Positions 1,598-47,430 of a stretch of 64,000 nucleotides of DNA are shown here, one piece after another. Position numbers and translations under genes: made by a program. Source of the DNA: an uncultured Actinomycetes bacterium. GTDB taxonomy: Bacteria; Actinomycetota; Acidimicrobiia; IMCC26256; PALSA-610. How positions within the stretch are numbered: the first letter of the stretch is position 1; every line of letters starts with the position of its first letter. Location of the stretch: the NCBI GenBank assembly GCA_963761175.1, contig CAVXFZ010000020.1, positions 16,231-80,230 of the forward strand, written 5' to 3'. Under the pieces are notes generated by a model. It searched no databases and was not told the DNA's origin. It was given only the letters and a program-made list of their open reading frames with translations.

Positions 1598-2386
1598 TCA
1601 GCGGCCCTCGAACTGCGGGCGGCGCTTCTCGAGGAACGCGCGCATGCCCTCGACCTGGTCGGCCGACGTGGCGCACCGACGCACCGCGTCGCGTTCGAGG
1701 CGCAGCGCGGCCTCCATCGGCAGGTGGTCGGCACCGAGCACGGCGCGCAACACCCCCGCGACCGCGATCGGCGGTTGCGCGGCGAGCTCCTCGGCGAGCG
1801 AGACGGCTCTCGCCTTCAGCTCGGCAGCCGGATGCAACTCGTGCACGAGCCCGATCGCCAGCGCGGTCGGGCCGTCGATCTTCTTCGCCCGCAGGATCAT
1901 GTCGAGTGCGTGCGCGCGCCCGACGGTGCGCGTGAGCCGCACGCTCCCACCCCACGCCGGCACGGTCCCGAGATCGAGCTCCGGCAGCCCGATGCGCGCG
2001 CCTTCGCTCGCGGCGAGACGGAAGTGACACGCGAGGGGCAGCTCGAGACCGCCGCCGAGGCAGTAGCCGAACATCGTCGCGATCACGGGCTTGTCGAGGT
2101 GTTCGATCATCGCGAGCACCCGCAGCCGCTGATCGAGCACGGCTTCGAAGCCGCCGCGGTCCTGCGCGCCCGCAACGAGCTGCTTCAGGTCCATGCCCAC
2201 GCTGAAGTGCTCGTCGCCCGCGGCCGTGACGACCACCGCGCGCGCCTCACGATCGTCGCGGAGCGCGATGACAGCCGCCTCGAGCTCGTCCATGTATTCG
2301 AACGTCATGCGGTTCCGCGGCGGATCCTGGTTCTCGAGGATCACCACCCGCCCGCGCCGCTCGACCCGCAGCGCCGTCCCGACCAT
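1598..2386 (-). CDS. enoyl-CoA hydratase/isomerase (crotonase) family protein
   Basis: 262-aa product from ATG 2386. Crotonase motifs AVVVTAAGDEHFSVGMDL and GYCLGGGLELPLACHFRLA. Confidence 0.9.
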   Translation of the reverse strand: MVGTALRVERRGRVVILENQDPPRNRMTFEYMDELEAAVIALRDDREARAVVVTAAGDEHFSVGMDLKQLVAGAQDRGGFEAVLDQRLRVLAMIEHLDKPVIATMFGYCLGGGLELPLACHFRLAASEGARIGLPELDLGTVPAWGGSVRLTRTVGRAHALDMILRAKKIDGPTALAIGLVHELHPAAELKARAVSLAEELAAQPPIAVAGVLRAVLGADHLPMEAALRLERDAVRRCATSADQVEGMRAFLEKRRPQFEGR

Positions 2387-2442
2387 CGTCGCATCCCCCT
2401 CGGCCGTCGTTCGCGCCCGGTTTCGGGCGCGTGCATCCTCGA

Positions 2443-2913
2443 TCAGGAGCGGCCGCTCCGCCAGTTGGGAACGCTCGGCGCGTGGGGTTCGAGCGACCGG
2501 AGGAAGGTCGTGAGCTCGAGGATCTGCTCGTCGGTGAGCGTGCCGCCGAACGACAGGCTCCACGCCGGCATCTCGGTTCCCGGCACGCCCCCCGCGACGA
2601 GGCCGCGGATCTGGTCGTCCGTCGTGGCCTTCAGGAACTCCTTCGAGTTGAGCACTGGACCACTGCCGCCGATCGCGTTCTTGCCGTGGCAACCCGAGCA
2701 GTTCGTCGCGAAGAGTTGCCGGCCGATCGTGCGGTACGACGCCTGCTGCGACGCGGCCGCGTCCCTGCGCAGCTGCGGCTCCCGGCCGCGATACACGATG
2801 AAACCGACGATGAGGACGACCATGAACACGAGACCCCACATGAGGTAACGGTTCAGGCTGCGTTCGAGATCCGCCGGCTCGAACGGCGGCGGGCTCGGTC
2901 GCTCCGCAGGCAT
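2443..2913 (-). CDS. membrane-anchored monohaem c-type cytochrome
   Basis: N-terminal TM helix (YLMWGLVFMVVLIVGFIVY) and a single CSGCH haem-binding motif. The ATG lies 4 nt after the Rieske stop. Confidence 0.85.
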   Translation of the reverse strand: MPAERPSPPPFEPADLERSLNRYLMWGLVFMVVLIVGFIVYRGREPQLRRDAAASQQASYRTIGRQLFATNCSGCHGKNAIGGSGPVLNSKEFLKATTDDQIRGLVAGGVPGTEMPAWSLSFGGTLTDEQILELTTFLRSLEPHAPSVPNWRSGRS

Positions 2914-2917
2914 CGGC

Positions 2918-3412
2918 TCAGCCCTTCGGTGTGCACGACGGGCCCTTGGCGGGCTTGAAGAACCGCTTCGCGCCGCGGTCGGGTCCGTTGATCAGCGTCG
3001 AGGTGTCGACGACGAGCGTGTCGCCGTCGACCTTCAGCGGGTACCGATCCAGGCCGCGCGGCGCCGGGCCCTCGATCCACTCTCCGCCGATGTCGTACTT
3101 GGAGCCGTGACAGGGGCACTCGAAGTGGCCCGACGACTCGCAGAACGGGACACGGCAGCCGAGATGCGGGCACTTCTGCGAGAGCGCGAAGACGCGAGCC
3201 CCGGTGTTGGCCACGAACAAGCGGCCGGCCGGCACGTACGTCGCCGTGTCGGCCGCAAAGCTGTCGACCGCGCCCAGACGGATGTTCGCGCCGGCCGCGG
3301 GCGTCGCGAGCGGGCGCAGCGATTCGTACGTCGTCCAACCCGCCGCGATCGCGAGCAGCGTGCCGCCGAGCTTCCAACCGTCGCGCAGGAAGTCGCGTCG
3401 TGTGGTTCGCAT
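2918..3412 (-). CDS. Rieske [2Fe-2S] protein with Tat-type signal anchor
   Basis: MRTTRRDFLRDG twin-arginine motif; Rieske boxes CPHLGC and CPCHGS. ATG at 3412, 8 nt after the cytochrome b stop. Confidence 0.9.
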   Translation of the reverse strand: MRTTRRDFLRDGWKLGGTLLAIAAGWTTYESLRPLATPAAGANIRLGAVDSFAADTATYVPAGRLFVANTGARVFALSQKCPHLGCRVPFCESSGHFECPCHGSKYDIGGEWIEGPAPRGLDRYPLKVDGDTLVVDTSTLINGPDRGAKRFFKPAKGPSCTPKG

Positions 3413-3420
3413 GGCGGCTC

Positions 3421-4800
3421 CTACATCTCGATGTACGAGTGAGTCCACGGTGCAATGAACTTCCAACCGGGACCGCGGAAGAACGTGCCGACGACCGTGA
3501 GCGCGACGGCAATCACGAGCAAGCCGGTGAAGATGACGATCGCGACCTTGCGGTGCCGCGCGACCGTCGAGGGATTTCGGTCGAGGTACGGGAGCAACAC
3601 GAGCGTGATGACCGCTCCGGTCGGGATGAGGATCCCGGCGATCAGCGGGTCGAAGCGGCTCAGCAGTTCCTGGAGACCGGCGAAGTACCACGGTGCCTTC
3701 GCGGGCTCGGGCGTGAGGTTCGGGTCGGCGAGGCCGCGCAGCGGCGCCGCGAACGCGACTCCGAGCGCGAGCACGGTGGCGGCGACACCGAGCGCGACCA
3801 CGACGTGGCGAACGAGCAGATGCGGCCAGGTGAACACGGTGTCGTCGACGGCGCGTTCCTCCGCGGTCACCGATTCGCGGTCGACGACGCCGAGCACCCG
3901 CGTCCGCCCGCCGTACAGGCTCGCCGGGGCGGTCGAGGGCACGGCGGCCGCAGGGAGCGCCGTCGCGCCTTCCTCGAACGCGCCCACCGACACGCGTTCG
4001 ACCGCGAAGCCGTCCTTGCGGACCCTCCAGATGTGGATGCCGAGCATCATCACGAGCGTGATCGGAAGCACCGCGACGTGCAGCGCGTAGAAACGCAACA
4101 GCGTCGACTGGCCGATCTGCGGACCACCGATCAACAGGTTCTGGACGGTCTTCCCGAACACCGGTACGTACTGCGTGAGGTTGGTGCCGACGGTCACGGC
4201 CCAGTAGCTCAACTGGTCCCACGGCAGCAAGTACCCGGTGAACGACAAGCCGAGCGTGAGCAGCATCAGCATCACGCCGATCACCCAGTTGAACTCGCGC
4301 GGCTTCTTGTACGCGCCTGCATAGAAGGTACGAACGAGATGGAGGAAGACGGCGAGCACCATGAGGTGCGCGGACCAGCGGTGCACGTTGCGTACGAGCT
4401 GTCCGAAGCCGACGCCCGTCCGCAAGTGCTGCATGTCGCCGTACGCGGAGTTCACCGACGGCGTGTAGAAGAACATGAGGTACACGCCCGTGAGGGTGAG
4501 GATGGCGAACAACACGGTGATGATGAACCCGAGCCGGAACGAGTAGCGGATCCGCAGCACGCGTGTCGGGATCTTCACGGGGTACAGGTGCAGGAAGAAG
4601 TTCGAGAACGACTGCAGCGCGCGACCGCGCGGCGTGTCGAGGTTCGGGTGCCGGAACATCGACCGCCACGCGTTCGAGCGTGCGATCCGCCCGCGCAGTC
4701 CGGTCGTGGGCGCATACGCGAGCTTCGGCTCGAGCGCGTCGCGGGCCGCGGGCGATTCGCCCGACGCGCCGTCTTTCGTCGTCACAGGAACGTCAGGCAC
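3421..4800 (-). CDS. cytochrome b (b6-like N-half fused to a subunit-IV-like C-half)
   Basis: Polytopic protein. His pairs in NVHRWSAHLMVLAVFLH and FYALHVAVLPITLVMMLGIH; PEWY-like APWYFAGLQELL in the C-terminal half. GTG 4800 has GGGAGG 6 nt upstream; the longest ORF would start at 4836. Confidence 0.9.
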   Translation of the reverse strand: MPDVPVTTKDGASGESPAARDALEPKLAYAPTTGLRGRIARSNAWRSMFRHPNLDTPRGRALQSFSNFFLHLYPVKIPTRVLRIRYSFRLGFIITVLFAILTLTGVYLMFFYTPSVNSAYGDMQHLRTGVGFGQLVRNVHRWSAHLMVLAVFLHLVRTFYAGAYKKPREFNWVIGVMLMLLTLGLSFTGYLLPWDQLSYWAVTVGTNLTQYVPVFGKTVQNLLIGGPQIGQSTLLRFYALHVAVLPITLVMMLGIHIWRVRKDGFAVERVSVGAFEEGATALPAAAVPSTAPASLYGGRTRVLGVVDRESVTAEERAVDDTVFTWPHLLVRHVVVALGVAATVLALGVAFAAPLRGLADPNLTPEPAKAPWYFAGLQELLSRFDPLIAGILIPTGAVITLVLLPYLDRNPSTVARHRKVAIVIFTGLLVIAVALTVVGTFFRGPGWKFIAPWTHSYIEM

Positions 4801-6607
4801 CGGCGACCTCCCGCGCGTGGACCATCGACAGGGCACCCGGTGGGCATCGATTGACGCACAGACCGCAGCGGATGCACAGGTCTTCGTCGAGGAGGAGGAC
4901 GCTCTGCGCCTCGGTTCCCGCTCCGACCAGGTCGGCCCGCGCGATCGTGATGCAGTTCGGCGGACACACGTCGACGCACAGCCCGCACAAGATGCAGAGC
5001 TCGGGTTCGAGCATCACGTTGTCGAAGCAGCGCAGGCAGCGCAGCGACTCGAGCCAGGCGCCCTGCGCGTCGTATCCGACCTCGACCTCCGCGAACCCGA
5101 TGCGGCGCTCCGTCGGCGTCGCGGGGACCGGTTGGCGCCCGATCGCGTCGTAGGCGGTCGCGAGCCGCCGGAAGCCGCGCCGCGGACCGAGCTCGACGCG
5201 GATCTCCGTCGGTGGGCGCGCCGGCGCGTCGGGGTCGTGGATCGACCGCGCGGCACGCTGGCCGTCGGCGATCGCGTCGATGAGGTTGCGCGGCCCGTGC
5301 GCGACGTCGCCGCCGGCCCAGATGCGCGGGTGCGACGTCCGCAGCGTCGCGGGATCGACCTGCACGCCCCCGCGCACCCGTTCCAGCTCGACGTCGCCGA
5401 GCAGGTCGAGATCGGCGGTCTGGCCCACGGCGAGGATGACGGTGTCGGCGTCGAGGACCGCTTCGGTTCCGGGCACGAAGGTCGGGGCGAAGCGGTGGTC
5501 GGCGTCGAACACCGACGCGACGTCGATCGTCTCGAGTCCGGTGACCCGCCCGCCCGCGCCGACGAAGCGATGCGGACCCTTGCGGTAGCGGATCGTGATC
5601 CCTTCGCCGGTGGCCTCGGCGATCTCCTCGGCGTCGGCGGGGATCTCCTCGGGCGACTCCAGCGCGATGACCGTGACGTCGGCGACGCCCGCGCGCGCGG
5701 CGGCACGCGCGACGTCGAGTGTCGTCACCATGCCGCGCCGGGCGTCGTCGTCGGTGCCGGCCGATTCCGGCGCGTTCGCGTCGGATCCGCCGGCACTGCC
5801 GCCGGCCGCGGCACGCAGCGCGCTACGGGCGGCATCGAACGCGACATTGCCACCACCCACGACGACGACGCGCTGACCGAGATCGGCGCGGAAGCCGAGG
5901 TTCACGTTGAGCAGGAACTCCACTGCGCTCAGCACGCCGTCGAGCTCGCGACCGGGAAGCTCGAGGTCACGCCCGCGACCGGTGCCGATGGCGAGGAAGA
6001 GCGCGTCGTGACGGTCGAGAAGCTCGGTCATCGTCGCGTCGCGCCCGACGCGAAACCCGAACGTGACGTCGATCCCGAGCTCGACGATCGCCGCGATCTC
6101 GCGGTTGATGAGCTCGCGCGCCAAGCGGTACTCGGGGATCCCGAGCACCATCATCCCGCCGAGCCGATCCGCGGCCTCGTAGATCGTGACGGGGTGGCCG
6201 GCGAGACGGAGCTCGTACGCGGCGGCGAGGCCCGCGGGCCCGCCTCCGACGATCCCGACGGAGCTCAGCGTCGCGGGCGGAACCTCGCCGTGCGCCTCGT
6301 GCCAGATCGAGCTGGCCGCGAAGCTCTCGACACCGAACTGCTCGGTGACGAATCGCTTCAGCGCACGGATCGCGATCGGCGCGTCGACCGTGCCGCGGCG
6401 GCAGGCGGCTTCGCACGGCGCCGCGCACACTCGCCCGCAGATGGACGCGAACGGGTTCGGGGCGCGCGCGGTGAGGTAGGCGTCGCGGAACCGGCCCTCG
6501 GCGATGGCGGTGACGTACGCGCCCGCGTCGGTGTGCACCGGGCACGCGGCGCGGCATGGTTCGTTCTCCCAGAGCCAATGGGCGTCAGGCACGGTCGGTC
6601 GGGGCAC
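4793..6607 (-). CDS. GltD-like NAD(P)H-dependent Fe-S flavoprotein with C-terminal 2x[4Fe-4S] ferredoxin domain
   Basis: N-terminal cluster motif CRAACPVH..ICGRVCAAPCEAACRRG. Two dinucleotide folds (VGIVGGGPAGLAAA, VVVVGGGNVAFDAA). C-terminal CILCGLCVDVCP and CIRCGLCVNRCP. GTG start at 6607, directly after the upstream stop. Confidence 0.85.
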   Translation of the reverse strand: MPRPTVPDAHWLWENEPCRAACPVHTDAGAYVTAIAEGRFRDAYLTARAPNPFASICGRVCAAPCEAACRRGTVDAPIAIRALKRFVTEQFGVESFAASSIWHEAHGEVPPATLSSVGIVGGGPAGLAAAYELRLAGHPVTIYEAADRLGGMMVLGIPEYRLARELINREIAAIVELGIDVTFGFRVGRDATMTELLDRHDALFLAIGTGRGRDLELPGRELDGVLSAVEFLLNVNLGFRADLGQRVVVVGGGNVAFDAARSALRAAAGGSAGGSDANAPESAGTDDDARRGMVTTLDVARAAARAGVADVTVIALESPEEIPADAEEIAEATGEGITIRYRKGPHRFVGAGGRVTGLETIDVASVFDADHRFAPTFVPGTEAVLDADTVILAVGQTADLDLLGDVELERVRGGVQVDPATLRTSHPRIWAGGDVAHGPRNLIDAIADGQRAARSIHDPDAPARPPTEIRVELGPRRGFRRLATAYDAIGRQPVPATPTERRIGFAEVEVGYDAQGAWLESLRCLRCFDNVMLEPELCILCGLCVDVCPPNCITIARADLVGAGTEAQSVLLLDEDLCIRCGLCVNRCPPGALSMVHAREVAGA

Positions 6608-6886
6608 TCAGATCCACCCTCGGCCCTGCATCCATCGCAACGCCCAGCTCAACGCGACGAGCACCACGAGGAACAGTGCGGTCGCCAGCGCCTCGCGGCC
6701 GCCCCGAGTGACGGCGAGCGCCTTGGTCAGGATGCGATTCGCGCCGACGACGGCGGCGCCGATGCCGACGACGAGGACCGCGACGCCGGAGAGCACCGCG
6801 CGCAGCCAGCTGATCTCGTGCTCGGGCTCGTCGGCGGATCTCGGGGCCGCCGGCACTCCGCCGGACGCGTCGCCCACGGAGCTCAC
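6608..6886 (-). CDS. small two-helix membrane protein, no recognisable family
   Basis: GTG 6886 overlaps the cupredoxin stop (GTGA). Hydrophobic helices LSGVAVLVVGIGAAVVGA and ALATALFLVVLVALSWAL. It sits inside the tightly packed operon. Confidence 0.5.
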   Translation of the reverse strand: MSSVGDASGGVPAAPRSADEPEHEISWLRAVLSGVAVLVVGIGAAVVGANRILTKALAVTRGGREALATALFLVVLVALSWALRWMQGRGWI

Positions 6887-7407
6887 GGAACCACCGTGAA
6901 CGGCGCCCGCATACCGAGGCCGTAGTGCTTGGCGATGTTGCACACGAGCACGTAGTTGCCGGGCACCATGTTCTTGATCACGAACGTGCGGGTGCCCCCG
7001 GGTTCGAGGTCGGGATCGCCGGTCTCGCCGACGTTGGCGTCCTCGCTCACCTTGTCGGCGCCGGCCTTCACCGGTACCGGCGGGTCGCCTCCGTACGTGA
7101 TCGGCAGCTTGTCGTACGGCGTGCTCGTCTTCAGCACCACGAGCTCGTGCACGATCGTTCCGAGGTTCTTGACGGTGAAGGTCACGTCGCCGGCCTTGGC
7201 CGAATCCTCGAACGTCACGACCTTCATCGGTCCGGCGAGCCCGCGAGTGTCACTCACGACGATGTCGACGTGACTGCCGGCGGCGGCCGGCGCGGTGACG
7301 GCGACACCGCCGTCGGAGGTCGAGGAGTTCGTCGGCGCGGCGCAGCCGGCGACGAGCAGGAGCGCACCGATCGCCGAAGCACCACACGCCAGTCGAACTC
7401 GGAACAT
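6883..7407 (-). CDS. cupredoxin (type-1 blue copper) lipoprotein
   Basis: Signal peptide with lipobox LLVAGC. Putative Cu ligands are the H in GTIVHELVV and C-x4-H-x4-M in VCNIAKHYGLGM. Confidence 0.8.
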   Translation of the reverse strand: MFRVRLACGASAIGALLLVAGCAAPTNSSTSDGGVAVTAPAAAGSHVDIVVSDTRGLAGPMKVVTFEDSAKAGDVTFTVKNLGTIVHELVVLKTSTPYDKLPITYGGDPPVPVKAGADKVSEDANVGETGDPDLEPGGTRTFVIKNMVPGNYVLVCNIAKHYGLGMRAPFTVVP

Positions 7408-7700
7408 CGCGACCCCCCGGCCGGCTGAAAGCGGGGCCCATTTTGTCGACGCGCACGCGTCCGGGCCAGTGCTGAAGGTCCCGAATCGTGCGCCGCGACC
7501 TCGCCCGCGATGAGACAGTGATGAGAGCCGGGTGCGCTACGTGCTCACGATGACGCTGCGCGCCGTGACCCACGTCGCGCGACAGGGTCAACAGGCCGAC
7601 GCAATGACGCGTCGTGAGCGGACGACGAGGATCCGGACGCCGGCTGAGCGTTCTCTTCGCGCCTCATGCGGGCGTCATCCTCGATCTCTACGGTCGAACG

Positions 7701-8831
7701 GTGAGAGCACATCGACGCCTCGTGGTGGCCGCCGGCATCTTCGTGCTCGCGCTCGCCGCGCCCTCGTGGTCGCTGGGACACGCGCTCACGAGGAACTCCA
7801 CGGATCCGGTGGGCGCGCGGGCCGTCGAGTGGGCACGCAGTCATCACTTCGGCGGGATCGTGACCCTTGCCGAACGGCAGTGGTACTCACATCACCAGCC
7901 GCCGGTCGGCGGCACACCGAAAGGCGGCATTCCGAGCCCGCCGCAGCTCGCGCTCAGCCGTTCGGAACCGTCGACGACCGCGGCGTCCCCGACGACCACG
8001 ACCACCCCGGCGCGGATCGCGCCGCTCGTCGCGAACCCGTTGCCCGGTGAGGGAAAGTGGCGGCCGTTCGGGAGAGCGGTCGACGGGACGCCGGCGGTGT
8101 GGGTCACGTACCTGCGGCCCGACGCGACGCACACGAGCCTCGTCGCGGGCGTCGCGCGCCTCGACATGACGCGCCTCACCGCGACGCTGCACGCCGGCAC
8201 CGACCTACCGGGCCACGGCCCGTGGACGCAGCCTCCGCGCATCGACCCGAGCCGCTACCCGTACGTGGTCGCCGCGTTCAACAGCGGATTCCGGCTCGAC
8301 TCGAGTCGCGGCGGCTACTACGACGACCACCGCATGCTGCAACCCCTCGTGTCCGGCGCGGCGTCACTCGTGATCTACCGCGACGGTCGTGTCGACGTCG
8401 GCGCGTGGGGGCGGGACGACCACATGAGCGCGTCGGTGGTGTCGGTGCGCCAGAACCTGCGGCTGCTCGTCGACGGCGGCAACCTCGTTCCCGGCCTCGC
8501 GAACGCGAATACTCAGGCGTGGGGTGGCACGGTCGGCAACGCGATCTACGTGTGGCGTTCGGGCGTTGGGATCGACGCGCACGGCAACCTGATCTATGTC
8601 GGTGGTCCCGGTCTCAATGTCGCCTCGCTCGCCGAGCTCCTGCACCGCGCCGGTTGCGTGCGTGCGATGGAGCTCGACATCAACACGTGGTGGGTGTCGT
8701 TCACCGGCTACGCGCCCGACGGGCACGGTGGCGTGCAGGCCGCGAACCTGCTGCCCTCGATGGTGCGCGCGCCGAACCGCTATCTCGTCACCGGAACACG
8801 CGACTTCTTCGAGATCGACGCCAAGCACTGA
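7701..8831 (+). CDS. phosphodiester glycosidase (NAGPA/DUF2233-like) family protein, membrane anchored
   Basis: Signal anchor RRLVVAAGIFVLALAAPSW, then a Pro/Thr linker. The C-terminal region (AFNSGF.., GGTVGNAIYVWRSGVGIDAHGNLIYVGGPG, AMELDIN) resembles that family. The start is GTG 7701, or GTG 7614 for the longest ORF. Confidence 0.65.
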   Translation: MRAHRRLVVAAGIFVLALAAPSWSLGHALTRNSTDPVGARAVEWARSHHFGGIVTLAERQWYSHHQPPVGGTPKGGIPSPPQLALSRSEPSTTAASPTTTTTPARIAPLVANPLPGEGKWRPFGRAVDGTPAVWVTYLRPDATHTSLVAGVARLDMTRLTATLHAGTDLPGHGPWTQPPRIDPSRYPYVVAAFNSGFRLDSSRGGYYDDHRMLQPLVSGAASLVIYRDGRVDVGAWGRDDHMSASVVSVRQNLRLLVDGGNLVPGLANANTQAWGGTVGNAIYVWRSGVGIDAHGNLIYVGGPGLNVASLAELLHRAGCVRAMELDINTWWVSFTGYAPDGHGGVQAANLLPSMVRAPNRYLVTGTRDFFEIDAKH

Positions 8832-14359: not shown

Positions 14360-14788
14360 TCAGGTCGCCTCGGCGATCCGGCGCGCTTCGCGTAGCTCAC
14401 CCGCGAGTCCGATGAGCAGCTGCTCCGCGAGGTCGGGGATCTCGCGGAGCAGCGTTCGGAACATGCGGATGCCGAGCACCGCGACCTTCACGTCGGTCAG
14501 GGCAGCGACGGTCGCGCTCCGCGGCTCGCCGTCGAGCACCGCGAGCTCGCCGAAGTAGGCGCCCGGTCCGACCCGGTTGATCTCGAGGTCGCCGTGACGG
14601 ACGGTCGCGTCGCCGTCGAGGATCACGAACAGCGCGTCGCCCGACTCGCCTTCGCGGATGAGGTCGGTACCGGCGGGCAGTGACGCGATCTCCGCATGGC
14701 GCGCGACGGTGCGCAGCTGGCGTGCGGTGCACTTGGAGAACAGCGTCACGTCGCCGAGCAGCTCCGCGAGCTCGCGCTTCGCCCCCAT
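14360..14788 (-). CDS. stand-alone cyclic-nucleotide-binding domain protein
   Basis: 142 aa from ATG 14788. cNMP-binding signature GESGDALFVILDGDATV..GPGAYFGELAVLDGEPRSATV. No HTH domain. Confidence 0.8.
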   Translation of the reverse strand: MGAKRELAELLGDVTLFSKCTARQLRTVARHAEIASLPAGTDLIREGESGDALFVILDGDATVRHGDLEINRVGPGAYFGELAVLDGEPRSATVAALTDVKVAVLGIRMFRTLLREIPDLAEQLLIGLAGELREARRIAEAT

Positions 14789-14801
14789 CGGCCCTTCCCC
14801 C

Positions 14802-14825
14802 GTCCCGTGCGCGGTCCCGTGCGCT
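14802..14825. repeat. tandem 12-nt direct repeat in the divergent promoter region
   Basis: gtcccgtgcgcg followed directly by gtcccgtgcgct, between the cNMP-binding gene (start 14788) and the MMPL gene (start 14907). Confidence 0.8.
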
Positions 14826-14906
14826 GCGCAGCCACCACCGTTACGCTGCCGCACACCTTTGCACTCGGGATCACACCGAGTCGAGCGACGGCCAGGGGGC
14901 GGCTGG

Positions 14907-17150
14907 GTGCGGCGGTTGGCCATCTTCGTGATCCGGCGGCGGTGGCTGGTCCTGATCGGCGTCCTGATCGCGCTCCCCGCGTTCGCGCTCTACGGCGGCA
15001 AGGTCCACGACAAGCTCTCGACGGGAGGCTTCACCGATCCGGGCGCGGAATCGAGCCGCGCCGCCGCCGAGATCGCGCGGCTGTTTCCCAAGGCGAGCCA
15101 ATCCGACTTCGTCGTCGTCGTGACCGCGCGTTCGGGAACCGTGAACGACGCCACCGTGAAGGCGGCCGGTACCGCGCTGACGGCGAAGCTCGCGCACGAC
15201 GCCGGCGTCCTCGACTCCGCGTCGTACTGGACCCTCGACGAGCCGGCCCAGTTGCGCAGCCGCGACAGCCGCCAGGCGCTGATCTTCGCCTCGTTGCGCG
15301 GCAACGACGACGAACGTCTCAAGACCGCGGCGCGCCTCTCGCCGCAGTTCAGTACCGACGGCACGGTGGTCGCGACCGCGGTCACGGGCCGCGTCGAGGT
15401 CACCCGCCAGCTCGCCGACGAAGCGCAAAAGGACCTCCAGAAGTCGGAGCTCCTCACTGCGCCACTCACGTTCATCGCGCTCGTGATCGTGTTCGGCAGC
15501 GCGGTCGCGGCCGGGCTCCCACTCGCCGTGGGCATCATCGCGGTACTCGGCACCTTCGCCGTGCTGACGCTGCTCACGCTGTTCACCGACGTCTCGGTGT
15601 TCGCGCTGAACCTCACGACCGGCATGGGGCTCGGGCTGTCGATCGACTACAGCCTCTTCATCGTCACGCGGTACCGCGAGGAGCTGCGCAACGGCGTCTC
15701 GACGAACGTCGCGGTCGGGCGTTCGATGCAGACGGCCGGAAGAACCGTCGCGTTCAGCGCGGGCACGGTCGCGGTGTCGATCGCGGTGCTCGCGCTCTTC
15801 CCGATGGCCTACCTGCGCTCGTTCGCGTTCGCAGGCGTCGCCGTGGTCGCGCTCGCCGGGATCGCGGCGGTGATCGTGCTACCCGCGGTGCTCGCGATCC
15901 TCGGGCCGCGCGTCGAGAAGGGGCGGATCCTCAAGACCCGCGCGGATCCGGAGAACCGCTTCTGGCACCGGCAGGCGGTGCGGGTGATGCACCGGCCGAT
16001 CCTCTACGCGGTCTCGGTGACGTTGTTGCTCTGCGCGCTCGCGATTCCGTTCTTCCACATCACGCCCGGGCTCGCCGACGATCGCGTCGGGCCGAAGTCG
16101 ATGTCGAGCCGCCAGGCCACCGACTCGATCCGCCACAACTTCGCCAGCCGCGAAGCCGACGCGCTCTCGGTGCTGATCGAAGGCGTGAACCCCACCACCG
16201 ACCGCGACGCGATCGACCGGTTCGCCCGTGCACTCGCCGGCACGCGGGGCGTCGCGCGGGTCGACGGGGCGAGCGGCTACTTCCTGCCGACCGCCGGCAA
16301 GGTCGTCGCGGTGCCGGCGTCGGCCGCGGCACCCGGGCTCGCGGCGCGCTTCACGTCGACGAGCGCCACGGATGCGACCTTCCTCTCCGTCGTCCCCGAC
16401 GTCGAGCCGTACTCGAAGGAGGGGGTGCGACTCGTCGACGACATCCGCGCGACCCCGGCACCGTTCCACTTCCTCGTCGCCGGCACCTCCGCCGAGCTCG
16501 TCGACACGCGCCATGCGGTCTTCGCACGGTTGCCGCTCGTGTTGGGGATCATCGCGATCGCGACGTTCGTGCTGCTGTTCTTCATGACCGGCAGCCTCGT
16601 GGTGCCCGTGAAGGCGTTGTTCCTCAACGTATTGAGCCTCACCGCGACGTTCGGCGCGACGGTGTGGATCTTCCAGGAAGGCCACCTCTCGCACCTCCTC
16701 GACTTCACGCCGTCGGGAACGATCGACGTCTTCACGCCGATCCTGATGTTCTGCATCGCGTTCGGCACGTCGATGGACTACGAGGTCTTCCTGCTGTCGC
16801 GTATCAAGGAGGAGTACGACCTCGAACGCGACAACGAGCACGCGGTCGCCGAGGGGCTCGCGAAGACCGGCCGGCTCGTCACCGCGGCCGCGCTGCTCCT
16901 GATGATCGTGTTCGTCGGAATCGCAGTCTCAGGCGTGCAACTGTTGAAGATCTTCGGTGTCGGCCTCGCACTCGCGGTGATCGTCGACGCGTTCCTGATC
17001 CGAACGATGCTGCTCCCCGCGTTCATGCGCCTGGCCGGGCGCGTCAACTGGTGGTCGCCGAAGTGGCTCCGCCAGTGGCACCTCCGCTTCGGGCTCTGGG
17101 AGAACGAGCCCATCGCGATCCTCGACCGCGAGTTCGAAGCCACGACCTGA
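14907..17150 (+). CDS. MMPL-family (RND superfamily) lipid transporter
   Basis: GTG 14907 (VRRLAIFVIRRRWLVL..). Two 6-TM bundles with MMPL-typical GLGLSIDYSLFIVTRYREEL and AFGTSMDYEVFLLSRIKEE, and large loops. Confidence 0.9.
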   Translation: MRRLAIFVIRRRWLVLIGVLIALPAFALYGGKVHDKLSTGGFTDPGAESSRAAAEIARLFPKASQSDFVVVVTARSGTVNDATVKAAGTALTAKLAHDAGVLDSASYWTLDEPAQLRSRDSRQALIFASLRGNDDERLKTAARLSPQFSTDGTVVATAVTGRVEVTRQLADEAQKDLQKSELLTAPLTFIALVIVFGSAVAAGLPLAVGIIAVLGTFAVLTLLTLFTDVSVFALNLTTGMGLGLSIDYSLFIVTRYREELRNGVSTNVAVGRSMQTAGRTVAFSAGTVAVSIAVLALFPMAYLRSFAFAGVAVVALAGIAAVIVLPAVLAILGPRVEKGRILKTRADPENRFWHRQAVRVMHRPILYAVSVTLLLCALAIPFFHITPGLADDRVGPKSMSSRQATDSIRHNFASREADALSVLIEGVNPTTDRDAIDRFARALAGTRGVARVDGASGYFLPTAGKVVAVPASAAAPGLAARFTSTSATDATFLSVVPDVEPYSKEGVRLVDDIRATPAPFHFLVAGTSAELVDTRHAVFARLPLVLGIIAIATFVLLFFMTGSLVVPVKALFLNVLSLTATFGATVWIFQEGHLSHLLDFTPSGTIDVFTPILMFCIAFGTSMDYEVFLLSRIKEEYDLERDNEHAVAEGLAKTGRLVTAAALLLMIVFVGIAVSGVQLLKIFGVGLALAVIVDAFLIRTMLLPAFMRLAGRVNWWSPKWLRQWHLRFGLWENEPIAILDREFEATT

Positions 17151-17168
17151 GCGGCCGCTGCCGGCTCG

Positions 17169-18545
17169 TCAGGCGAGCTTCACCAGCTCGTCGAAGGAGT
17201 CCTGGAGGCACGCGATCAACAGATCGGCGTCGGGTATCGCGGCCGGGTCGGAGTTGATCGCCAGGTGCAGCTCGTCGAGGTGCGAGATCATCGTGACGTT
17301 CAGCGCCGCGCCGGCGTGCGGCGAGAACCCGAAGTTCTGGAGCGACGCCGATCCCGCGACGTAGAGCGGGATCGGCGTGCCCGGCACGCTGCTCGCGACG
17401 ACGTCGACGCGGCGCCCGACCGCCGACACCATCGGCGCCAACCAACCGGCCGGCACGACGTTGAGGAGCCGCGCGGCCGAGCCCGTGAACGACAGCGCCT
17501 GCTCGGTACGTTGGGCGGTGGTCACGTCGCGCACGATCTCCATGCGCACGAGAGGATCGGCGGCGTCGATCGGCAGGACGAAGCGCGCCGGCGCGAACTG
17601 GTTCCCCAGCCCGGTGTCCTCGCGGGTGCTCACCGGCATCGCGAACCGCAACGCGGGAGCATCGACCGCGTGGCTCGCGTGATAGCGGGCCAAGCCGCCC
17701 GCGATGCCCGCGACGAACGCGGTGTTGAGCTTCGCGTTCACGCGGTGCGCGGCCGCCTTCATCTCGGGCATCGGTACCGCGAGCGCGTCGAAGCGCGCGC
17801 CCAGCGACCGATCCCGCATGAGCGGGCTCAGCGCGCCCGAGCCGGGTGCCGTGACCCGCGCGAGCGAGCGGCCGAAGCTCACCGCCGACGCCGTGGTGTC
17901 GAGCGGATGGGCGCAGGCGTCGACGAGCATGCCGGGAGCGCGGCGGGCGAACCGTGCAATCGTGGCGGCGTCGTTGCGCGCGGACCCGATGAGCCGTTGC
18001 AGGGTCGAGACGTCGGCGAGCACCGGCGGGGCCGCGACCGGCGCGGCCGGAGCCGGATCGGGCTCGATGTCGACGAAGACGAGCACGACGTCGAGCAGGC
18101 TGATGCCGTCGCCGAGTGAGTGATGGATCTTCTGGATCGCGGCGGCCCGGCCGTCGGCGAGGCCCTCGACGATGTGCGACTCCCACAACGGGCGGGCCGT
18201 GTCGAACGGGTGCAGCGAGAGCCGGGCCGCGTAGTCGAGCAGTTCCCGCAGGCCGGAACCGTCGGGGAGGCGCACGAACTGGAGGTGGTAGTCGACGTCG
18301 AACTCGGACGCCGGCCTCCACGTGGGCGCCACCCCCGCGACCGGAGACCACACCGGCACTTCGCGAAAGCGCGGCACCCGGTCGATCCCCTCGAGCACCC
18401 GGCGGCGGAACCGCTCACGATCCGGAGGATGCGAGAGCAGCGCGACCTGGAGGATCGTCGAACGCAGCTCGGGCGACCGTTCGAGCCGCAGCAGGAGCGT
18501 GTCGGTGGCGCTCAGCTCTCGGGCGCTCTGCGGAGGTGCCGGCAC
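17169..18545 (-). CDS. wax ester synthase/diacylglycerol acyltransferase (WS/DGAT)
   Basis: Active-site motif HHSLGDG (HHxxxDG) and overall WS/DGAT layout. GTG 18545 lies just downstream of the SDR stop at 18550. Confidence 0.85.
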   Translation of the reverse strand: MPAPPQSARELSATDTLLLRLERSPELRSTILQVALLSHPPDRERFRRRVLEGIDRVPRFREVPVWSPVAGVAPTWRPASEFDVDYHLQFVRLPDGSGLRELLDYAARLSLHPFDTARPLWESHIVEGLADGRAAAIQKIHHSLGDGISLLDVVLVFVDIEPDPAPAAPVAAPPVLADVSTLQRLIGSARNDAATIARFARRAPGMLVDACAHPLDTTASAVSFGRSLARVTAPGSGALSPLMRDRSLGARFDALAVPMPEMKAAAHRVNAKLNTAFVAGIAGGLARYHASHAVDAPALRFAMPVSTREDTGLGNQFAPARFVLPIDAADPLVRMEIVRDVTTAQRTEQALSFTGSAARLLNVVPAGWLAPMVSAVGRRVDVVASSVPGTPIPLYVAGSASLQNFGFSPHAGAALNVTMISHLDELHLAINSDPAAIPDADLLIACLQDSFDELVKLA

Positions 18546-18549
18546 CCGA

Positions 18550-19347
18550 TCAACTCCTCGCCGACTGCCGCAGCACGAACTTGCTCGCCTGGCGCGTGAA
18601 CACCGTCGGCAGGAAGCCCGACGCGGTCGCGACGACCCGTTGCAGCGCACCGGGGATCTCGACGGGACGGTTGCGCGCGACGGCGTCGAGCGCGGCCCGC
18701 GCGACACCCTCGGTCGACTGCCACATGAACGCCGGCCCACCGGGGAGCACCCCGAGGCGAGTCTGGAACTCCGTCTGCATGAACCCCGGGCACACCACGG
18801 TCGCGCGCACGCCGGTGCCGATGAGGTCGTCGTGGACCGCCTGCGTGAACGACGTGACGAACGCCTTCGTGGCGCAGTACGTCGCCATGCGGGGCCCGGG
18901 CTGGAAGCTCGCCATCGACGACACGTTCAGGATCGCGCCGCGTCCCTGCTGCACCATCGTGCGCGCCGCGGCGTGGGTGAGCCGCACGACCGCGAGCACG
19001 TTGAGCCGGACCTCGCGTTCCTCCCAGTCGACGTCGAGCTGATGGAAACGGCCGCCGGTGCCGAATCCCGCGTTGTTCACCAGGATGTCGATCGGCGCGC
19101 GCTGGTCGGCGCAGCGGGCTTCGACGCGTGCGAGGTCGTCGGGCTCGGTGAGGTCGGCACTGAGCACGTCGTACGCGATGCCGTGATCGGCTCGCAAGCT
19201 CGCACCGACCTTCTCGAGCCGCTCGGCGTCGCGCGCGACGAGAATCAGATCGTGGCCGCGTTCGGCCAGCAACCGTGCGAAGTCGACTCCGATGCCCGTC
19301 GACGCGCCCGTGACGAGACCGACACGCCGATCACGGCTGCGACTCAC
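18550..19347 (-). CDS. short-chain dehydrogenase/reductase (SDR)
   Basis: TGASTGIG cofactor motif, NNAG, and a catalytic YxxxK (YCATK). Confidence 0.9.
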   Translation of the reverse strand: MSRSRDRRVGLVTGASTGIGVDFARLLAERGHDLILVARDAERLEKVGASLRADHGIAYDVLSADLTEPDDLARVEARCADQRAPIDILVNNAGFGTGGRFHQLDVDWEEREVRLNVLAVVRLTHAAARTMVQQGRGAILNVSSMASFQPGPRMATYCATKAFVTSFTQAVHDDLIGTGVRATVVCPGFMQTEFQTRLGVLPGGPAFMWQSTEGVARAALDAVARNRPVEIPGALQRVVATASGFLPTVFTRQASKFVLRQSARS

Positions 19348-19594
19348 CGGGCAACCGCCCGCAACGCAGCGTCGCCGGCGCGCGCGGTCGCGGTCGACGC
19401 GTCCGGCTCAGCAAGCACCGCCGCCCCCGACGCGGTGTACGCCATGATCCTCCCGCCCTGTTGCTCCCAGCGCTCTCGCGCGCCCCTTCCGGGAGCGGCG
19501 CAATGATTTCCCATCGCTGCTCCCTGGTCAACTGCGACGACCGCCCATTAGCGTCACCCGCGATCGGGAGCTCACGGGGCGGGAGGCAGTTCCC

Positions 19595-21518: not shown

Positions 21519-21540
21519 AACGGCTCGTACCACGACGGTG

Positions 21541-27467: not shown

Positions 27468-27518
27468 CGAGCTCCTACGAGACGGATGAGACCCGCCGGG
27501 CCGATCCCGGCCCGACGG

Positions 27519-46015: not shown

Positions 46016-46060
46016 CGCACGTCCTCCCTCTCCACGCGGACGCGTCCTCGGCCCGCGCGT

Positions 46061-47341: not shown

Positions 47342-47430
47342 CGCCGCTTCCCCCACCTCGAGCGCAAAGTGGAGCGCAGACTAGCGACCATCGGAGCCCC
47401 GCGCCCGGGCCCGCTCGGGGGCGATCCGCC

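What the first reader, a model, noticed from the sequence alone, without database searches (positions are those of the whole stretch)
2443..7407. Rieske/cytochrome b operon with an embedded GltD-like NAD(P)H Fe-S flavoprotein, a blue-copper lipoprotein and a monohaem cytochrome c
Six minus-strand genes are packed with overlaps or gaps of 0-8 nt: GTGA at 6883-6886, TGA directly followed by GTG at 6607-6610, an 8-nt overlap at 4793-4800, and gaps of 8 and 4 nt around the Rieske gene. This argues for one transcription and translation unit. The order is cupredoxin lipoprotein, 92-aa membrane protein, 604-aa GltD-like flavoprotein (N-terminal Fe-S motif, two dinucleotide folds, C-terminal 2x[4Fe-4S]), cytochrome b, Tat-Rieske, and a TM-anchored CSGCH cytochrome c. 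The canonical actinobacterial qcrCAB has a dihaem cytochrome c and no flavoprotein or copper protein. Rieske/cyt b clusters with a GltD-like NAD(P) oxidoreductase subunit are known from anammox Planctomycetes. There they are proposed to couple quinol oxidation to NAD(P)+ reduction by bifurcation. Finding the same combination plus a cupredoxin acceptor in an actinobacterial-type context suggests a poorly described alternative bc-type complex. It would have one branch to a soluble or lipid-anchored copper protein and one to pyridine nucleotides or ferredoxin.
Basis: partly seen in the sequence, partly recalled or inferred. Interest (0 to 1): 0.75.

Follow-up and report, generated by a model that had tools for sequence, protein, structure and literature searches.

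The report
Anammox-type flavoprotein-bearing Rieske/cytochrome b operon
A soil actinobacterium (class Acidimicrobiia) carries a conserved six-gene operon for a respiratory Rieske/cytochrome b complex with a built-in NAD(P)-binding iron-sulfur flavoprotein, a type so far discussed almost only for anammox bacteria, which gives a simpler system for testing whether such complexes make NAD(P)H from quinol.

Summary
Six minus-strand genes at 2443-7407 are packed exactly as described. They encode a cupredoxin lipoprotein, a 2-TM small protein, a GltD/NfnB-like Fe-S flavoprotein, a fused b6+subunit-IV cytochrome b, a Tat-Rieske protein and a TM-anchored monohaem cytochrome c.

The host is an uncultured Acidimicrobiia bacterium. 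The same flavoprotein-cyt b-Rieske-cyt c core is found in the Acidimicrobiia loci recovered from 38 genome contigs, with unrelated flanks. Most also carry one to three cupredoxin domains and the small protein.

Rieske, flavoprotein and cytochrome b are homologous as a set to the Kuenenia Kuste4569-4573-type complex:
- The best solved-structure hits for the Rieske protein are the two Kuenenia Rieske proteins.
- All 16 flavoprotein cysteines are conserved.
- The Qo block PAKAPWYFxGLQE is identical.
- The N-terminal His proposed to ligate an extra b haem is kept.

Differences from the anammox form:
- Cytochrome b is fused and has no haem cn site.
- Subunit IV has 3 TM helices, not 5.
- The outer partners are a monohaem c plus cupredoxin, not multihaem cytochromes.
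- The NAD(P) site reads LES, not YRR.

Function is inferred. The most likely one is menaquinol oxidation split between cupredoxin and NAD(P)+. Co-occurrence of this cytochrome b clade with such oxidoreductases is already noted in the literature, so this is a new variant of a known, uncharacterised kind.

The parts
6883..7407 (-). Type-1 (blue) copper protein. It is a lipoprotein (signal peptide plus LVAGC lipobox) and the likely outer-face electron acceptor.
   Evidence: Pfam SoxE and Cupredoxin_1 hits are weak. The best solved-structure hit is 6kol, 'Blue (Type 1) copper domain protein', with CNIAKHYGLGM aligned to CTYPAHYAGGM. The ligands H87, C156, H161 and M166 are conserved in all homologues aligned. 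The protein has 2-3 fused domains in Ilumatobacteraceae.
6608..6886 (-). Small membrane protein of about 92 aa with two TM helices. It matches no family and is a candidate accessory subunit. The start codon is uncertain.
   Evidence: There is no Pfam or NCBIfam hit. Two hydrophobic segments lie at residues 30-48 and 65-83. The core GW.RA...LRRLQ.RGLI is conserved at the same position in most Acidimicrobiia loci.
4793..6607 (-). Cytoplasmic GltD/NfnB-like flavoprotein of 604 aa. It has N-terminal Cys motifs (Fer4_20), an FAD fold (GGGPAG), an NAD(P) fold (GGGNVA) and a C-terminal 2x[4Fe-4S] ferredoxin domain plus a CxxC pair.
   Evidence: Pfam and NCBIfam hits. Best solved-structure relatives are NfnA 9n5u, 9bov, 8oh5_C, NfnB and GltD. 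It scores 319-403 bits against anammox-locus flavoproteins, compared with 301 bits for the best PDB hit. All 16 Cys are conserved across both phyla. No signal peptide is visible in the sequence.
3421..4800 (-). Cytochrome b of 459 aa: a b6-like four-helix part fused to a three-helix subunit-IV part through a cytoplasmic linker of about 60 aa. It belongs to the APWY Qo-motif clade and has no haem cn site.
   Evidence: Pfam Cytochrome_B + Cytochrom_B_C; NCBIfam ExtP 266 bits, QcrB_actin 121 bits against a cut-off of 500. b6 is the best PDB hit, and the four haem His residues (H140, H154, H241, H256) are conserved. CxGG is replaced by RLGF. The N-terminal motif WRSxFRH...LHLYP is shared with the anammox cytochrome b. 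APWY lies at residues 369-372.
4588..4590 (-). Codon of His71 in cytochrome b (FFLHLYP). [quoted passage not shown]
   Evidence: In the alignment it is conserved in all 24 Acidimicrobiia sequences (window included) and all 6 anammox-type sequences. Its proposed role comes from the AlphaFold3 models in PMC12954380.
2918..3412 (-). Rieske [2Fe-2S] protein of 164 aa with a twin-arginine signal-anchor (RRDFL). It has the boxes CPHLGC and CPCHGSKY and a C-terminal extension ending in KGPSC.
   Evidence: Pfam Rieske. The best solved-structure hits are 9rk4 and 9rk3, which I take to be the two Kuenenia Rieske proteins. The Ser and Tyr hydrogen-bond donors are kept.
2443..2913 (-). Monohaem class-I cytochrome c of 156 aa with one N-terminal TM anchor. 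It has CSGCH, a likely Met ligand in GTEMP, and a conserved cytoplasmic N-terminus.
   Evidence: Pfam Cytochrom_C and Cytochrome_CBB3. The N-terminal TM plus first haem domain resembles the first half of actinobacterial QcrC. A TM segment lies at residues 23-41. Alignment.
7408..7613 (.). Intergenic region of 206 nt between the cupredoxin gene and a divergent plus-strand gene. It is the inferred promoter region of the operon.
   Evidence: It is the only gap longer than 8 nt upstream of the six genes. There is no sigma-70 consensus match, which is uninformative in a genome of about 70% G+C.

Best explanation
The six genes form one operon for a membrane Rieske/cytochrome b complex of the 'APWY / subfamily G' type. 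This complex carries a cytoplasmic NAD(P)-binding Fe-S flavoprotein as an integral subunit, as in the anammox Kuste4569-4573 and Kustd1480-1485 complexes.

Proposed working (inferred):
1. Menaquinol is oxidised at the outer Qo site.
2. One electron goes to the high-potential Rieske cluster, then to the anchored monohaem cytochrome c, then to the lipid-anchored cupredoxin. From there it passes to a terminal oxidase or another high-potential acceptor.
3. The other electron crosses the membrane through the two b haems.
4. Instead of reducing quinone at an inner site, it leaves through a His71-ligated interfacial haem and/or directly into four [4Fe-4S] clusters.
5. It ends at the FAD of the flavoprotein, which reduces NAD(P)+.

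The net reaction is a quinol:cupredoxin/NAD(P)+ electron-bifurcating oxidoreductase.

What is shown and what is not:
- Shown: gene content, homology, conservation and cofactor motifs.
- Inferred: physical association.
- Inferred and least certain: the direction of electron flow.

Confidence that this is a flavoprotein-bearing Rieske/cyt b complex homologous to the anammox type is about 0.85. Confidence in the quinol-to-NAD(P)+ direction is about 0.45.
For: Operon structure:
- Start and stop codons overlap or abut, and Shine-Dalgarno-like sequences lie inside the preceding genes.

Conservation:
- The core flavoprotein-cyt b-Rieske-cyt c is found in the Acidimicrobiia loci from 38 genome contigs, plus L002.
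- No flanking gene family recurs in more than about 5 loci.

Homology of the three core proteins, as a set, to Kuste4569-4574-type loci:
- These loci hold Rieske, flavoprotein, b6, a 5-TM subunit IV, a hexahaem c and an octahaem c.
- tblastn identities are 33-41% for the flavoprotein over residues 8-595 and 44-48% for cytochrome b.
- phmmer scores are 319-403 bits for the flavoprotein, against 301 for the best PDB relative. Cytochrome b scores 225-238 bits, against 168 for b6 and 92 for QcrB.
- The Rieske protein's best solved relatives are 9rk4 and 9rk3.

Cofactor path:
- All 16 flavoprotein Cys are conserved.
- The four b-haem His residues are conserved.
- His71 corresponds to Kuste4571 His43 and is conserved in every sequence aligned.

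Energetics:
- The Rieske protein keeps the Ser and Tyr of CPCHGSKY. In Kuste4569 these accompany +303 mV, unusually high for a menaquinol enzyme.

Topology:
- The flavoprotein has no signal peptide.
- The Rieske protein has a Tat motif, the cytochrome c is TM-anchored and the cupredoxin is a lipoprotein.

Precedent:
- All subunits of the Kuenenia complex co-migrate, as cited in PMC12954380.
Against: - No biochemical data exist for any member of the APWY clade (PMC4122944). NAD(P)H formation is only a proposal even in Kuenenia.
- There are no RNA data for co-transcription.
- The haem cn site (CxGG) is lost.
- Kuste4570 Arg511, which the anammox model places near the extra haem, appears by my offset-corrected numbering (via L004) to be Leu here. 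The junction between cytochrome b and the flavoprotein may therefore differ.
- The end of the NAD(P)-domain beta2 strand is IALES, not the YRR of NfnB/GltD and of Kuenenia-like homologues. Nucleotide preference, or even binding, is uncertain.
- I could not show that an inner quinone-reduction site is absent.
- An aerobic heterotroph has easier routes to NAD(P)H, so the physiological need is unclear.
Confidence: 0.45

Rival explanations
1. The same complex runs the other way. NAD(P)H is oxidised by the flavoprotein, and electrons pass through the Fe-S chain into the inner b haem or quinone site. The complex then acts as an NAD(P)H:menaquinone or NAD(P)H:cupredoxin oxidoreductase, in effect a complex I-plus-III shortcut. 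The Rieske, cytochrome c and cupredoxin branch works as in an ordinary Q cycle.
For: - Electron flow from NAD(P)H to menaquinone is downhill, which suits an aerobic heterotroph.
- Four-helix cytochromes b commonly anchor cytoplasmic oxidoreductases. Dibrova et al. propose exactly this as the ancestral state, and they cite de Almeida 2016 as suggesting electron flow towards menaquinone.
- The R-K-D motif after helix D (WRVRKDG) is retained.
- The LES motif suggests NADH, a catabolic donor.
Against: - Hauser et al. argue that this direction wastes energy when proton-pumping NADH dehydrogenases exist.
- The high-potential Rieske signature (Ser and Tyr) is not needed for this direction.
- The loss of haem cn, together with the conserved His71, points to an exit path rather than a quinone site.
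Confidence: 0.3
2. Reverse or 'uphill' operation. Electrons from a high-potential donor enter through cupredoxin and cytochrome c to the Rieske protein. They reduce menaquinone at Qo together with electrons from NAD(P)H (confurcation), or under the drive of the membrane potential. This follows the suggestion that APWY-type complexes work in reverse.
For: [quoted passage not shown]
- From my own knowledge, not tested here: cupredoxins act as donors in iron-oxidising acidophiles, and some Acidimicrobiia oxidise Fe(II).
- The number of cupredoxin domains varies from 1 to 3.
Against: - No lithotrophy genes lie in the window or in conserved flanks.
- The sources are soil metagenomes.
- Spending NAD(P)H to reduce quinone from cytochrome c gives no obvious benefit.
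- The reverse-operation idea has no experimental basis.
Confidence: 0.1
3. This is an ordinary quinol:cytochrome c/cupredoxin bc-type complex. The flavoprotein is merely co-transcribed, either as a soluble NAD(P)H-dependent Fe-S enzyme of separate function or as a redox sensor or assembly factor. It is not an electron-transfer subunit.
For: - GltD/NfnB-like modules serve many unrelated enzymes.
- Automated names call it 'formate dehydrogenase (NADP+) beta subunit'.
- No direct evidence of association exists in this lineage.
Against: - The position inside the operon is invariant, with an 8-nt overlap onto cytochrome b in the window.
- The same pairing occurs in an unrelated phylum, where the subunits co-migrate.
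- No formate dehydrogenase, GltB or NfnA partner gene is adjacent.
- The cytochrome b N-terminal extension, the linker and the His residue are all cytoplasmic, and they are conserved together with the flavoprotein.
Confidence: 0.1

Closest known systems
Kuenenia stuttgartiensis Rieske/cyt b complexes Kuste4569-4574 and Kustd1480-1485 (anammox 'R/b-2' and 'R/b-3', with a putative NAD(P) oxidoreductase)
   Same: - A homologous Rieske protein (best PDB hits 9rk4 and 9rk3).
- A homologous flavoprotein with the same domain order and all 16 Cys.
- A homologous b6-like cytochrome b with the same N-terminal motif, including the equivalent of His43.
- An identical Qo block, PAKAPWYFxGLQE, and the VFTWP start of subunit IV.
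- The Rieske Ser/Tyr signature.
   Different: - Gene order: the flavoprotein precedes cytochrome b and Rieske follows it, against Rieske-flavoprotein-b6-IV in the Kuste4569 type.
- Cytochrome b is fused to subunit IV.
- Subunit IV has 3 TM helices, not 5.
- There is no CxGG haem cn site.
- A monohaem c plus cupredoxin replace the hexa- and octahaem cytochromes and the HAO-like protein.
- An extra 2-TM small protein is present.
- The NAD(P) motif is LES, against YRR in the Kuenenia-like subgroup.
- The host is an (apparently aerobic) soil actinobacterium with no anammoxosome.
Cytochrome b 'APWY clade' (Kao & Hunte 2014), equal to subfamily G including the long-form clade G' (Dibrova et al. 2013, 2017)
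   Same: - The APWY Qo motif.
- A long, fused form that lacks CxGG. Of the 67 fused proteins among the 150 best representatives, none has CxGG and 46 have APWY.
- The literature notes co-occurrence with NAD(P)-binding Fe-S oxidoreductases.
   Different: The papers read here give neither an Acidimicrobiia operon of this composition nor a cupredoxin partner. Kao & Hunte list only a split cytochrome b in Ilumatobacter. Whether this cluster falls in clade G' could not be checked, because no supplement was held.
Actinobacterial cytochrome bcc (QcrCAB) of the bcc-aa3 supercomplex
   Same: Both are menaquinol-oxidising Rieske/cyt b enzymes of the same phylum. The cytochrome c N-terminal anchor plus haem domain resembles the first half of QcrC.
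   Different: - QcrB model: 121 bits against a cut-off of 500.
- QcrA model: 38 bits against 275.
- QcrC model: 30 bits against 200.
- One haem c rather than two.
- The Rieske protein is 164 aa, against chains of about 390-430 aa for the solved actinobacterial QcrA hits.
- Canonical QcrCAB, as the finding states, has no flavoprotein or copper protein.
Cytochrome b6f / Bacillus-type b6c complexes
   Same: The four-helix b6-like core is the best solved-structure match (168 bits), with a three-helix subunit-IV part and, as in b6f, a blue copper protein as the likely acceptor.
   Different: - No haem cn, and the polypeptide is fused.
- No cytochrome f.
- A cytoplasmic flavoprotein is encoded in the operon, rather than a loosely bound FNR.
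NfnAB / Stn transhydrogenases and the glutamate synthase small subunit (GltD)
   Same: The flavoprotein shares the Fer4_20 + FAD + NAD(P) architecture. NfnA 9n5u (301 bits), StnC 8oh5_C, NfnB and GltD are its nearest solved relatives.
   Different: - It has an extra C-terminal 2x[4Fe-4S] domain.
- No NfnA or GltB partner is present.
- YRR is replaced by LES.
- A 30-aa insertion is present.
- It is embedded in a membrane-complex operon.
Geobacter ExtOPQ (selenite/tellurite 'ext' cluster; NCBIfam ExtP and ExtQ)
   Same: It gives the top NCBIfam hit for cytochrome b (ExtP 266 bits, ExtQ 54 bits), so it is a related b6-like cytochrome b.
   Different: The scores are below the cut-offs (290 and 150). 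The ext cluster has multihaem cytochromes and no flavoprotein (PMC5877670).

Membership tests
Rieske/cytochrome b (bc-type) complexes in general | Cytochrome b with two His pairs on helices B and D for two b haems | tested here: met
   H140 and H154, and H241 and H256, align with the b6 haem ligands.
Rieske/cytochrome b (bc-type) complexes in general | Rieske protein with CxHxGC and CxCH boxes, exported with a membrane anchor | tested here: met
   CPHLGC at 81-86, CPCHGS at 99-104 and the RRDFL twin-arginine motif.
Rieske/cytochrome b (bc-type) complexes in general | Qo motif (PEWY-type) in the ef loop | tested here: met
   The variant APWY lies at 369-372. It is one of the six major patterns of Kao & Hunte.
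Rieske/cytochrome b (bc-type) complexes in general | Quinol oxidation with bifurcated electron transfer | not testable with these tools
   This needs enzymology.
Anammox-type Rieske/cyt b complex with an NAD(P) oxidoreductase subunit | A GltD-like Fe-S flavoprotein (four cluster motifs, FAD, NAD(P)) encoded inside the Rieske/cyt b operon | tested here: met
   All 16 Cys are conserved with the anammox-locus proteins.
Anammox-type Rieske/cyt b complex with an NAD(P) oxidoreductase subunit | Cytochrome b N-terminal extension with the His (Kuste4571 His43) proposed to bind an interfacial b haem | tested here: met
   His71 in FFLHLYP is conserved in all sequences aligned. Haem binding itself was not testable.
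Anammox-type Rieske/cyt b complex with an NAD(P) oxidoreductase subunit | High-potential Rieske signature (Ser, with or without Tyr, after CPCHG) | tested here: met
   CPCHGSKY matches Kuste4569. The potential itself was not measured.
Anammox-type Rieske/cyt b complex with an NAD(P) oxidoreductase subunit | Split b6 with the CxGG haem cn site, and a five-helix subunit IV | tested here: not met
   The protein is a fused 459-aa chain, RLGF replaces WCMGG, and three TM helices follow the linker.
Anammox-type Rieske/cyt b complex with an NAD(P) oxidoreductase subunit | Multihaem (hexa- or octahaem) cytochrome c partners | tested here: not met
   One CxxCH cytochrome c plus a cupredoxin here, against 6- and 8-CxxCH proteins in the anammox loci.
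Anammox-type Rieske/cyt b complex with an NAD(P) oxidoreductase subunit | Flavoprotein physically bound; NAD(P)H produced | not testable with these tools
   Only co-migration in Kuenenia is reported.
Actinobacterial QcrCAB (cytochrome bcc) | QcrB, QcrA and QcrC reach the NCBIfam cut-offs; dihaem QcrC | tested here: not met
   Scores of 121 against 500, 37.6 against 275 and 30.2 against 200; a single CxxCH.
Geobacter ExtOPQ | ExtP and ExtQ equivalog scores; multihaem ext partners | tested here: not met
   Scores of 265.7 against 290 and 54.2 against 150. No multihaem genes are present.
NfnAB / glutamate synthase | A GltD/NfnB-type subunit paired with an NfnA or GltB partner | tested here: not met
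   The fold family is matched, but no partner gene lies in the window flanks or in related loci.

The most novel reading that the evidence does not exclude
Soil and aquatic Acidimicrobiia use an oxygen-linked, electron-bifurcating Rieske/cyt b complex to make NAD(P)H directly from menaquinol, with a cupredoxin as the high-potential outlet. This would be the first such enzyme outside anammox bacteria and a minimal form of it: seven plus two TM helices, one haem c and one copper. It would also suggest that a third, interfacial b haem (His71) is the general exit from cytochrome b to cytoplasmic Fe-S partners, even where haem cn is absent.
Probability: 0.35. Interest if true: 0.85.

Novelty: new variant of a known kind. 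Interest (0 to 1): 0.6.

Why it matters
Since about 2011-2013 it has been an open question whether a Rieske/cytochrome b complex can send its low-potential electron to NAD(P)+ instead of running a Q cycle. The question has rested on anammox bacteria, which are slow-growing and, to my knowledge, not available in pure culture, and whose complexes carry many haems.

The version found here differs in ways that could make experiments easier:
- It comes from a widespread actinobacterial class.
- It has simple outer-face partners.
- It has no haem cn.

It may therefore be easier to express, purify and solve. It also separates the features that travel with the flavoprotein from those specific to anammox. 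The first group is the N-terminal His, the APWY motif, the Ser/Tyr Rieske signature and the 16 Cys. The second group is haem cn and the multihaem cytochromes.

If the function is confirmed, it would add a new route of NAD(P)H supply, or of NAD(P)H oxidation, to models of respiration in abundant soil and water Acidimicrobiia.

Tried and rejected
1. I recalled that the Geobacter Ext/Cbc6 cluster holds a GltD-like subunit. This was wrong: ExtM is a 12-haem cytochrome.
2. I tested whether the 2-TM small protein corresponds to the two extra helices of the anammox subunit IV. hhalign gave probability 0.15%, so no support.
3. I looked for RNA-seq data to test co-transcription. Only three soil-metagenome DNA runs with a low word share were found.
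4. The sigma-70 and terminator scan of 2000-8000 found nothing, which is uninformative at about 70% G+C.
5. I looked for conserved neighbours that might name the terminal acceptor or donor. No family recurs beyond the cluster itself, and the window has no other respiratory genes.
6. The supplement of Dibrova 2017, needed to place the cluster in clade G', is not held.
7. Literature searches for an Acidimicrobiia description found nothing.
8. The apparent conservation of a longer N-terminus of the small ORF (MQHRQALRP...) is the alternative reading frame of the cupredoxin copper loop. It is not evidence for that start.
9. Whether the same genome also has qcrCAB could not be tested, because scans were capped and only this 64-kb window was available.
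Single-chain models were judged uninformative and were not run.

Full report
**Observation**

The region 2443-7407 holds six minus-strand ORFs. Five of them have the third-position G+C (0.89-0.90) typical of real genes in this ~70% G+C window. The Rieske gene and the small ORF were not scored separately, because each lies inside a longer open frame.

- The cupredoxin stop and the next start share GTGA (6883-6886).
- That ORF's TGA abuts the flavoprotein GTG (6605-6610).
- The flavoprotein stop and the cytochrome b GTG at 4800 overlap by 8 nt, with GGGAGG upstream.
- An 8-nt gap (with AGGAG) precedes the Rieske ATG at 3412.
- A 4-nt gap precedes the cytochrome c ATG at 2913.

The next minus-strand gene is an enoyl-CoA hydratase (1598-2386), 56 nt downstream. 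It is not conserved next to the cluster elsewhere.

**What the six genes encode**

Profile searches and motif positions give the following.

1. *Cupredoxin, 174 aa.* It has a signal peptide and the lipobox LVAGC. Its ligand set is H87, C156, H161, M166. Its only significant solved relative is the blue copper protein 6kol, with CNIAKHYGLGM aligned to CTYPAHYAGGM.
2. *Small protein, about 92 aa.* It has two hydrophobic helices and matches no family.
3. *Flavoprotein, 604 aa.* It has a Fer4_20 domain (C18, C22, C57, C61, C65, C69), an FAD fold (GGGPAG), an NAD(P) fold (GGGNVA), and a C-terminal CxxC pair plus two CxxCxxCxxxC motifs. Its nearest solved relatives are NfnA 9n5u, 9bov, StnC 8oh5_C, NfnB and GltD.
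4. *Cytochrome b, 459 aa.* The b6-like half matches chloroplast and cyanobacterial b6 best (168 bits) and keeps all four haem histidines. Cys35 of the haem cn motif CxGG is replaced (RLGF). A three-helix subunit-IV-like half follows a cytoplasmic linker.
5. *Rieske protein, 164 aa.* It has RRDFL, CPHLGC and CPCHGSKY.
6. *Cytochrome c, 156 aa.* It has one TM helix and one CSGCH. It resembles the first half of actinobacterial QcrC.

The cluster is not a canonical qcrCAB. The QcrB, QcrA and QcrC models score 121 against 500, 38 against 275 and 30 against 200.

**Host and conservation**

Close homologues of the flavoprotein (at least 75% identity, at least 120 clusters) come from Acidimicrobiia MAGs and from soil and other metagenomes.

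A scan of one genome per species returned 38 contigs with Acidimicrobiia-type loci, from 37 MAGs. They are labelled Ilumatobacteraceae, Microthrixaceae, Aquihabitans, Acidimicrobiaceae and unclassified; one is labelled Burkholderiales.
- All hold flavoprotein-cyt b-Rieske-cyt c in the same order, as far as the contig extends.
- Most also hold the small protein and one to three cupredoxin units upstream.
- In Ilumatobacteraceae the extra units are fused domains of one lipoprotein, and each keeps its copper ligands.
- The flanks differ from genome to genome, and no neighbouring family recurs. The six genes therefore behave as a self-contained module.

A divergent Acidimicrobiia branch (L107, L108, L110; flavoprotein 53% identical) has a split b6 and subunit IV, a dihaem cytochrome c, no cupredoxin and no small protein. 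The invariant core is therefore flavoprotein + cytochrome b + Rieske + a c-type cytochrome.

**Relation to the anammox complexes**

Hauser et al. 2025 (PMC12954380) make these points:
- Kartal et al. proposed that these complexes use quinol bifurcation to make NAD(P)H.
- Their Rieske proteins have +303 and +335 mV.
- AlphaFold3 models place an extra b haem between the two cytochrome b monomers on the negative side. It is ligated by His43 of Kuste4571, and four Fe-S clusters lead from it to FAD.

The window's Rieske protein finds two proteins as its best solved relatives, 9rk4 and 9rk3, which I take to be these two Kuenenia Rieske proteins. I used the 9rk4 fragment to fetch metagenomic loci. 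Many of them have the Kuste4569-4574 layout: Rieske, flavoprotein of about 590 aa, b6, five-helix subunit IV, hexahaem c and octahaem c.

Against these loci the comparison gives:
- The window flavoprotein aligns over residues 8-595 at 33-41% identity. Cytochrome b aligns at 44-48% (b6 part) and 38-46% (subunit IV part).
- phmmer scores are 319-403 bits for the flavoprotein and 225-238 + 108-119 bits for cytochrome b. These exceed every solved non-anammox relative.
- All 16 flavoprotein cysteines are conserved in both phyla.
- The cytochrome b N-terminal motif WRSxFRHxxxDTPRxRALQxxSNxxLHxxP is shared. The His of 'LH' is residue 43 in the Kuenenia-like numbering and His71 in the window. It is present in all 24 Acidimicrobiia sequences (window included) and all 6 anammox-type sequences aligned.
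- The Qo block PAKAPWYFxGLQE and the VFTWP start of subunit IV are identical.

APWY defines a clade in Kao & Hunte 2014 that includes Planctomycetes and a few deep Actinobacteria, 'none characterised in vitro nor in vivo'. Dibrova et al. 2017 call the same group subfamily G. They note that it co-occurs with NAD(P)-binding Fe-S oxidoreductases 'in many other cases', and that long forms lack CxGG. My survey of representatives agrees. There are 1104 representatives at E ≤ 1e-30. Of the best 150, 67 are fused (at least 400 aa), none of those has CxGG, and 46 have APWY.

**Differences from the anammox form**

- The gene order differs, and cytochrome b is fused.
- The subunit-IV part has three helices, not five.
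- There is no haem cn site.
- A monohaem cytochrome c and a cupredoxin replace the multihaem proteins.
- There is an additional 2-TM protein, with no detectable similarity to the two extra anammox helices.
- By my offset-corrected numbering via L004, Arg511 of Kuste4570 corresponds to Leu here.
- The NAD(P) domain has an insertion of about 30 aa and ends its beta2 strand with IALES where NfnB, GltD and Kuenenia-like proteins have YRR. One subgroup of the anammox-type loci (L022, L034, L058) shares both traits and is the closest to the window.

From general knowledge of Rossmann folds, an acidic residue at that position suggests NADH rather than NADPH. This is an inference.

**Mechanism**

Topology follows from the sequences. 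The flavoprotein has no export signal. The cytochrome b N-terminal extension, its linker and the conserved N-terminus of cytochrome c lie on the cytoplasmic side, following the known topology of cytochrome b. The Rieske domain, the haem c domain and the cupredoxin are outside.

- *Best-supported reading (about 0.45).* This is the Kartal-type scheme. Menaquinol is oxidised at Qo. One electron goes through Rieske and cytochrome c to cupredoxin. The other goes through the two b haems, then a His71 haem and/or directly, through four [4Fe-4S] clusters to FAD and NAD(P)+. Support comes from the conserved cofactor path, the Ser and Tyr Rieske signature that accompanies an unusually high potential in Kuste4569, and the loss of haem cn with retention of the His.
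- *Main rival (about 0.3).* The same wiring runs from NAD(P)H into the b haems and the quinone pool.
- *Two further rivals (about 0.1 each).* One is reverse, confurcating operation. The other is a flavoprotein that is only co-transcribed.

Nothing here measures direction, association or nucleotide specificity.

**Verdict**

The complex belongs to a kind already recognised in phylogenomic and anammox literature but never characterised. The Acidimicrobiia form is fused, lacks haem cn, is linked to a cupredoxin, and is widespread in uncultured soil and water actinobacteria. I found no description of it. I rate it a new variant of a known kind.

Its value is as a simpler system for testing whether Rieske/cyt b complexes can reduce NAD(P)+.

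Noticed in passing
L086 6757-7737; L087 6313-7737: In Ilumatobacteraceae MAGs the cupredoxin upstream of the cluster is a single lipoprotein. It has two or three tandem cupredoxin domains joined by Ser/Thr-rich linkers, and each domain keeps the His/Cys/His/Met ligands.
   Followed up: partly
L107 7923-12396; L108; L110 7842-12240: A divergent Acidimicrobiia variant of the cluster has a flavoprotein 53% identical to the window's. Cytochrome b is split into b6 and subunit IV, the cytochrome c is dihaem, and there is no cupredoxin or small protein. The FRH histidine is lost but the LH.YP histidine is kept.
   Followed up: partly
L091 and L092 (two contigs of MAG MFD02134.bin.2.1): One MAG carries two full copies of the cluster on different contigs. 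The flavoproteins are 80% and 78% identical to the window's. This could be paralogy or strain mixing in the bin.
   Followed up: no
L097 (CAYRHS010000081.1): This contig is labelled 'uncultured Burkholderiales bacterium', but it carries the Acidimicrobiia-type cluster at 74-76% protein identity (flavoprotein and cytochrome b). It is probably mis-binned.
   Followed up: no
window 6886-6943: The longer 111-aa form of the small ORF begins MQHRQALRP..., which looks conserved in relatives. This stretch is the alternative reading frame of the cupredoxin copper loop (CNIAKHYGLGM), so the conservation is a by-product of that gene.
   Followed up: yes
window 5716-5805 (flavoprotein residues ~269-298) and 5654-5668 (IALES): A low-complexity insertion of about 30 aa sits in the NAD(P) domain, and YRR is replaced by LES at the end of strand beta2. 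Both traits are shared with one subgroup of anammox-type loci (L022, L034, L058) but not with the Kuenenia-like ones (L003, L004, L061).
   Followed up: partly
window 2918-2960 (Rieske C-terminus) and 2829-2913 (cytochrome c N-terminus): The Acidimicrobiia Rieske proteins have a C-terminal extension ending in a conserved P.KGPSC, which is absent from the anammox proteins. The cytochrome c has a strongly conserved cytoplasmic N-terminus, MP.ERP.PPPFEP..LERSL.RYL, before its TM helix. That N-terminus may be a contact with a cytoplasmic subunit.
   Followed up: no
window 14658-22938: A neutral-lipid gene neighbourhood: an MMPL transporter, two WS/DGAT wax-ester/triacylglycerol synthases (17169-18740 and 21541-22938), a short-chain dehydrogenase and a patatin-like lipase.
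   Followed up: no
window 26499-33755: A 2078-aa surface protein with Big_9, cadherin-like and fn3 repeats lies directly upstream of a MoxR-type AAA ATPase gene.
   Followed up: no
window 44732-47356: Two tandem paralogues of GSDH-family (glucose/sorbosone dehydrogenase) proteins, of 427 and 431 aa.
   Followed up: no
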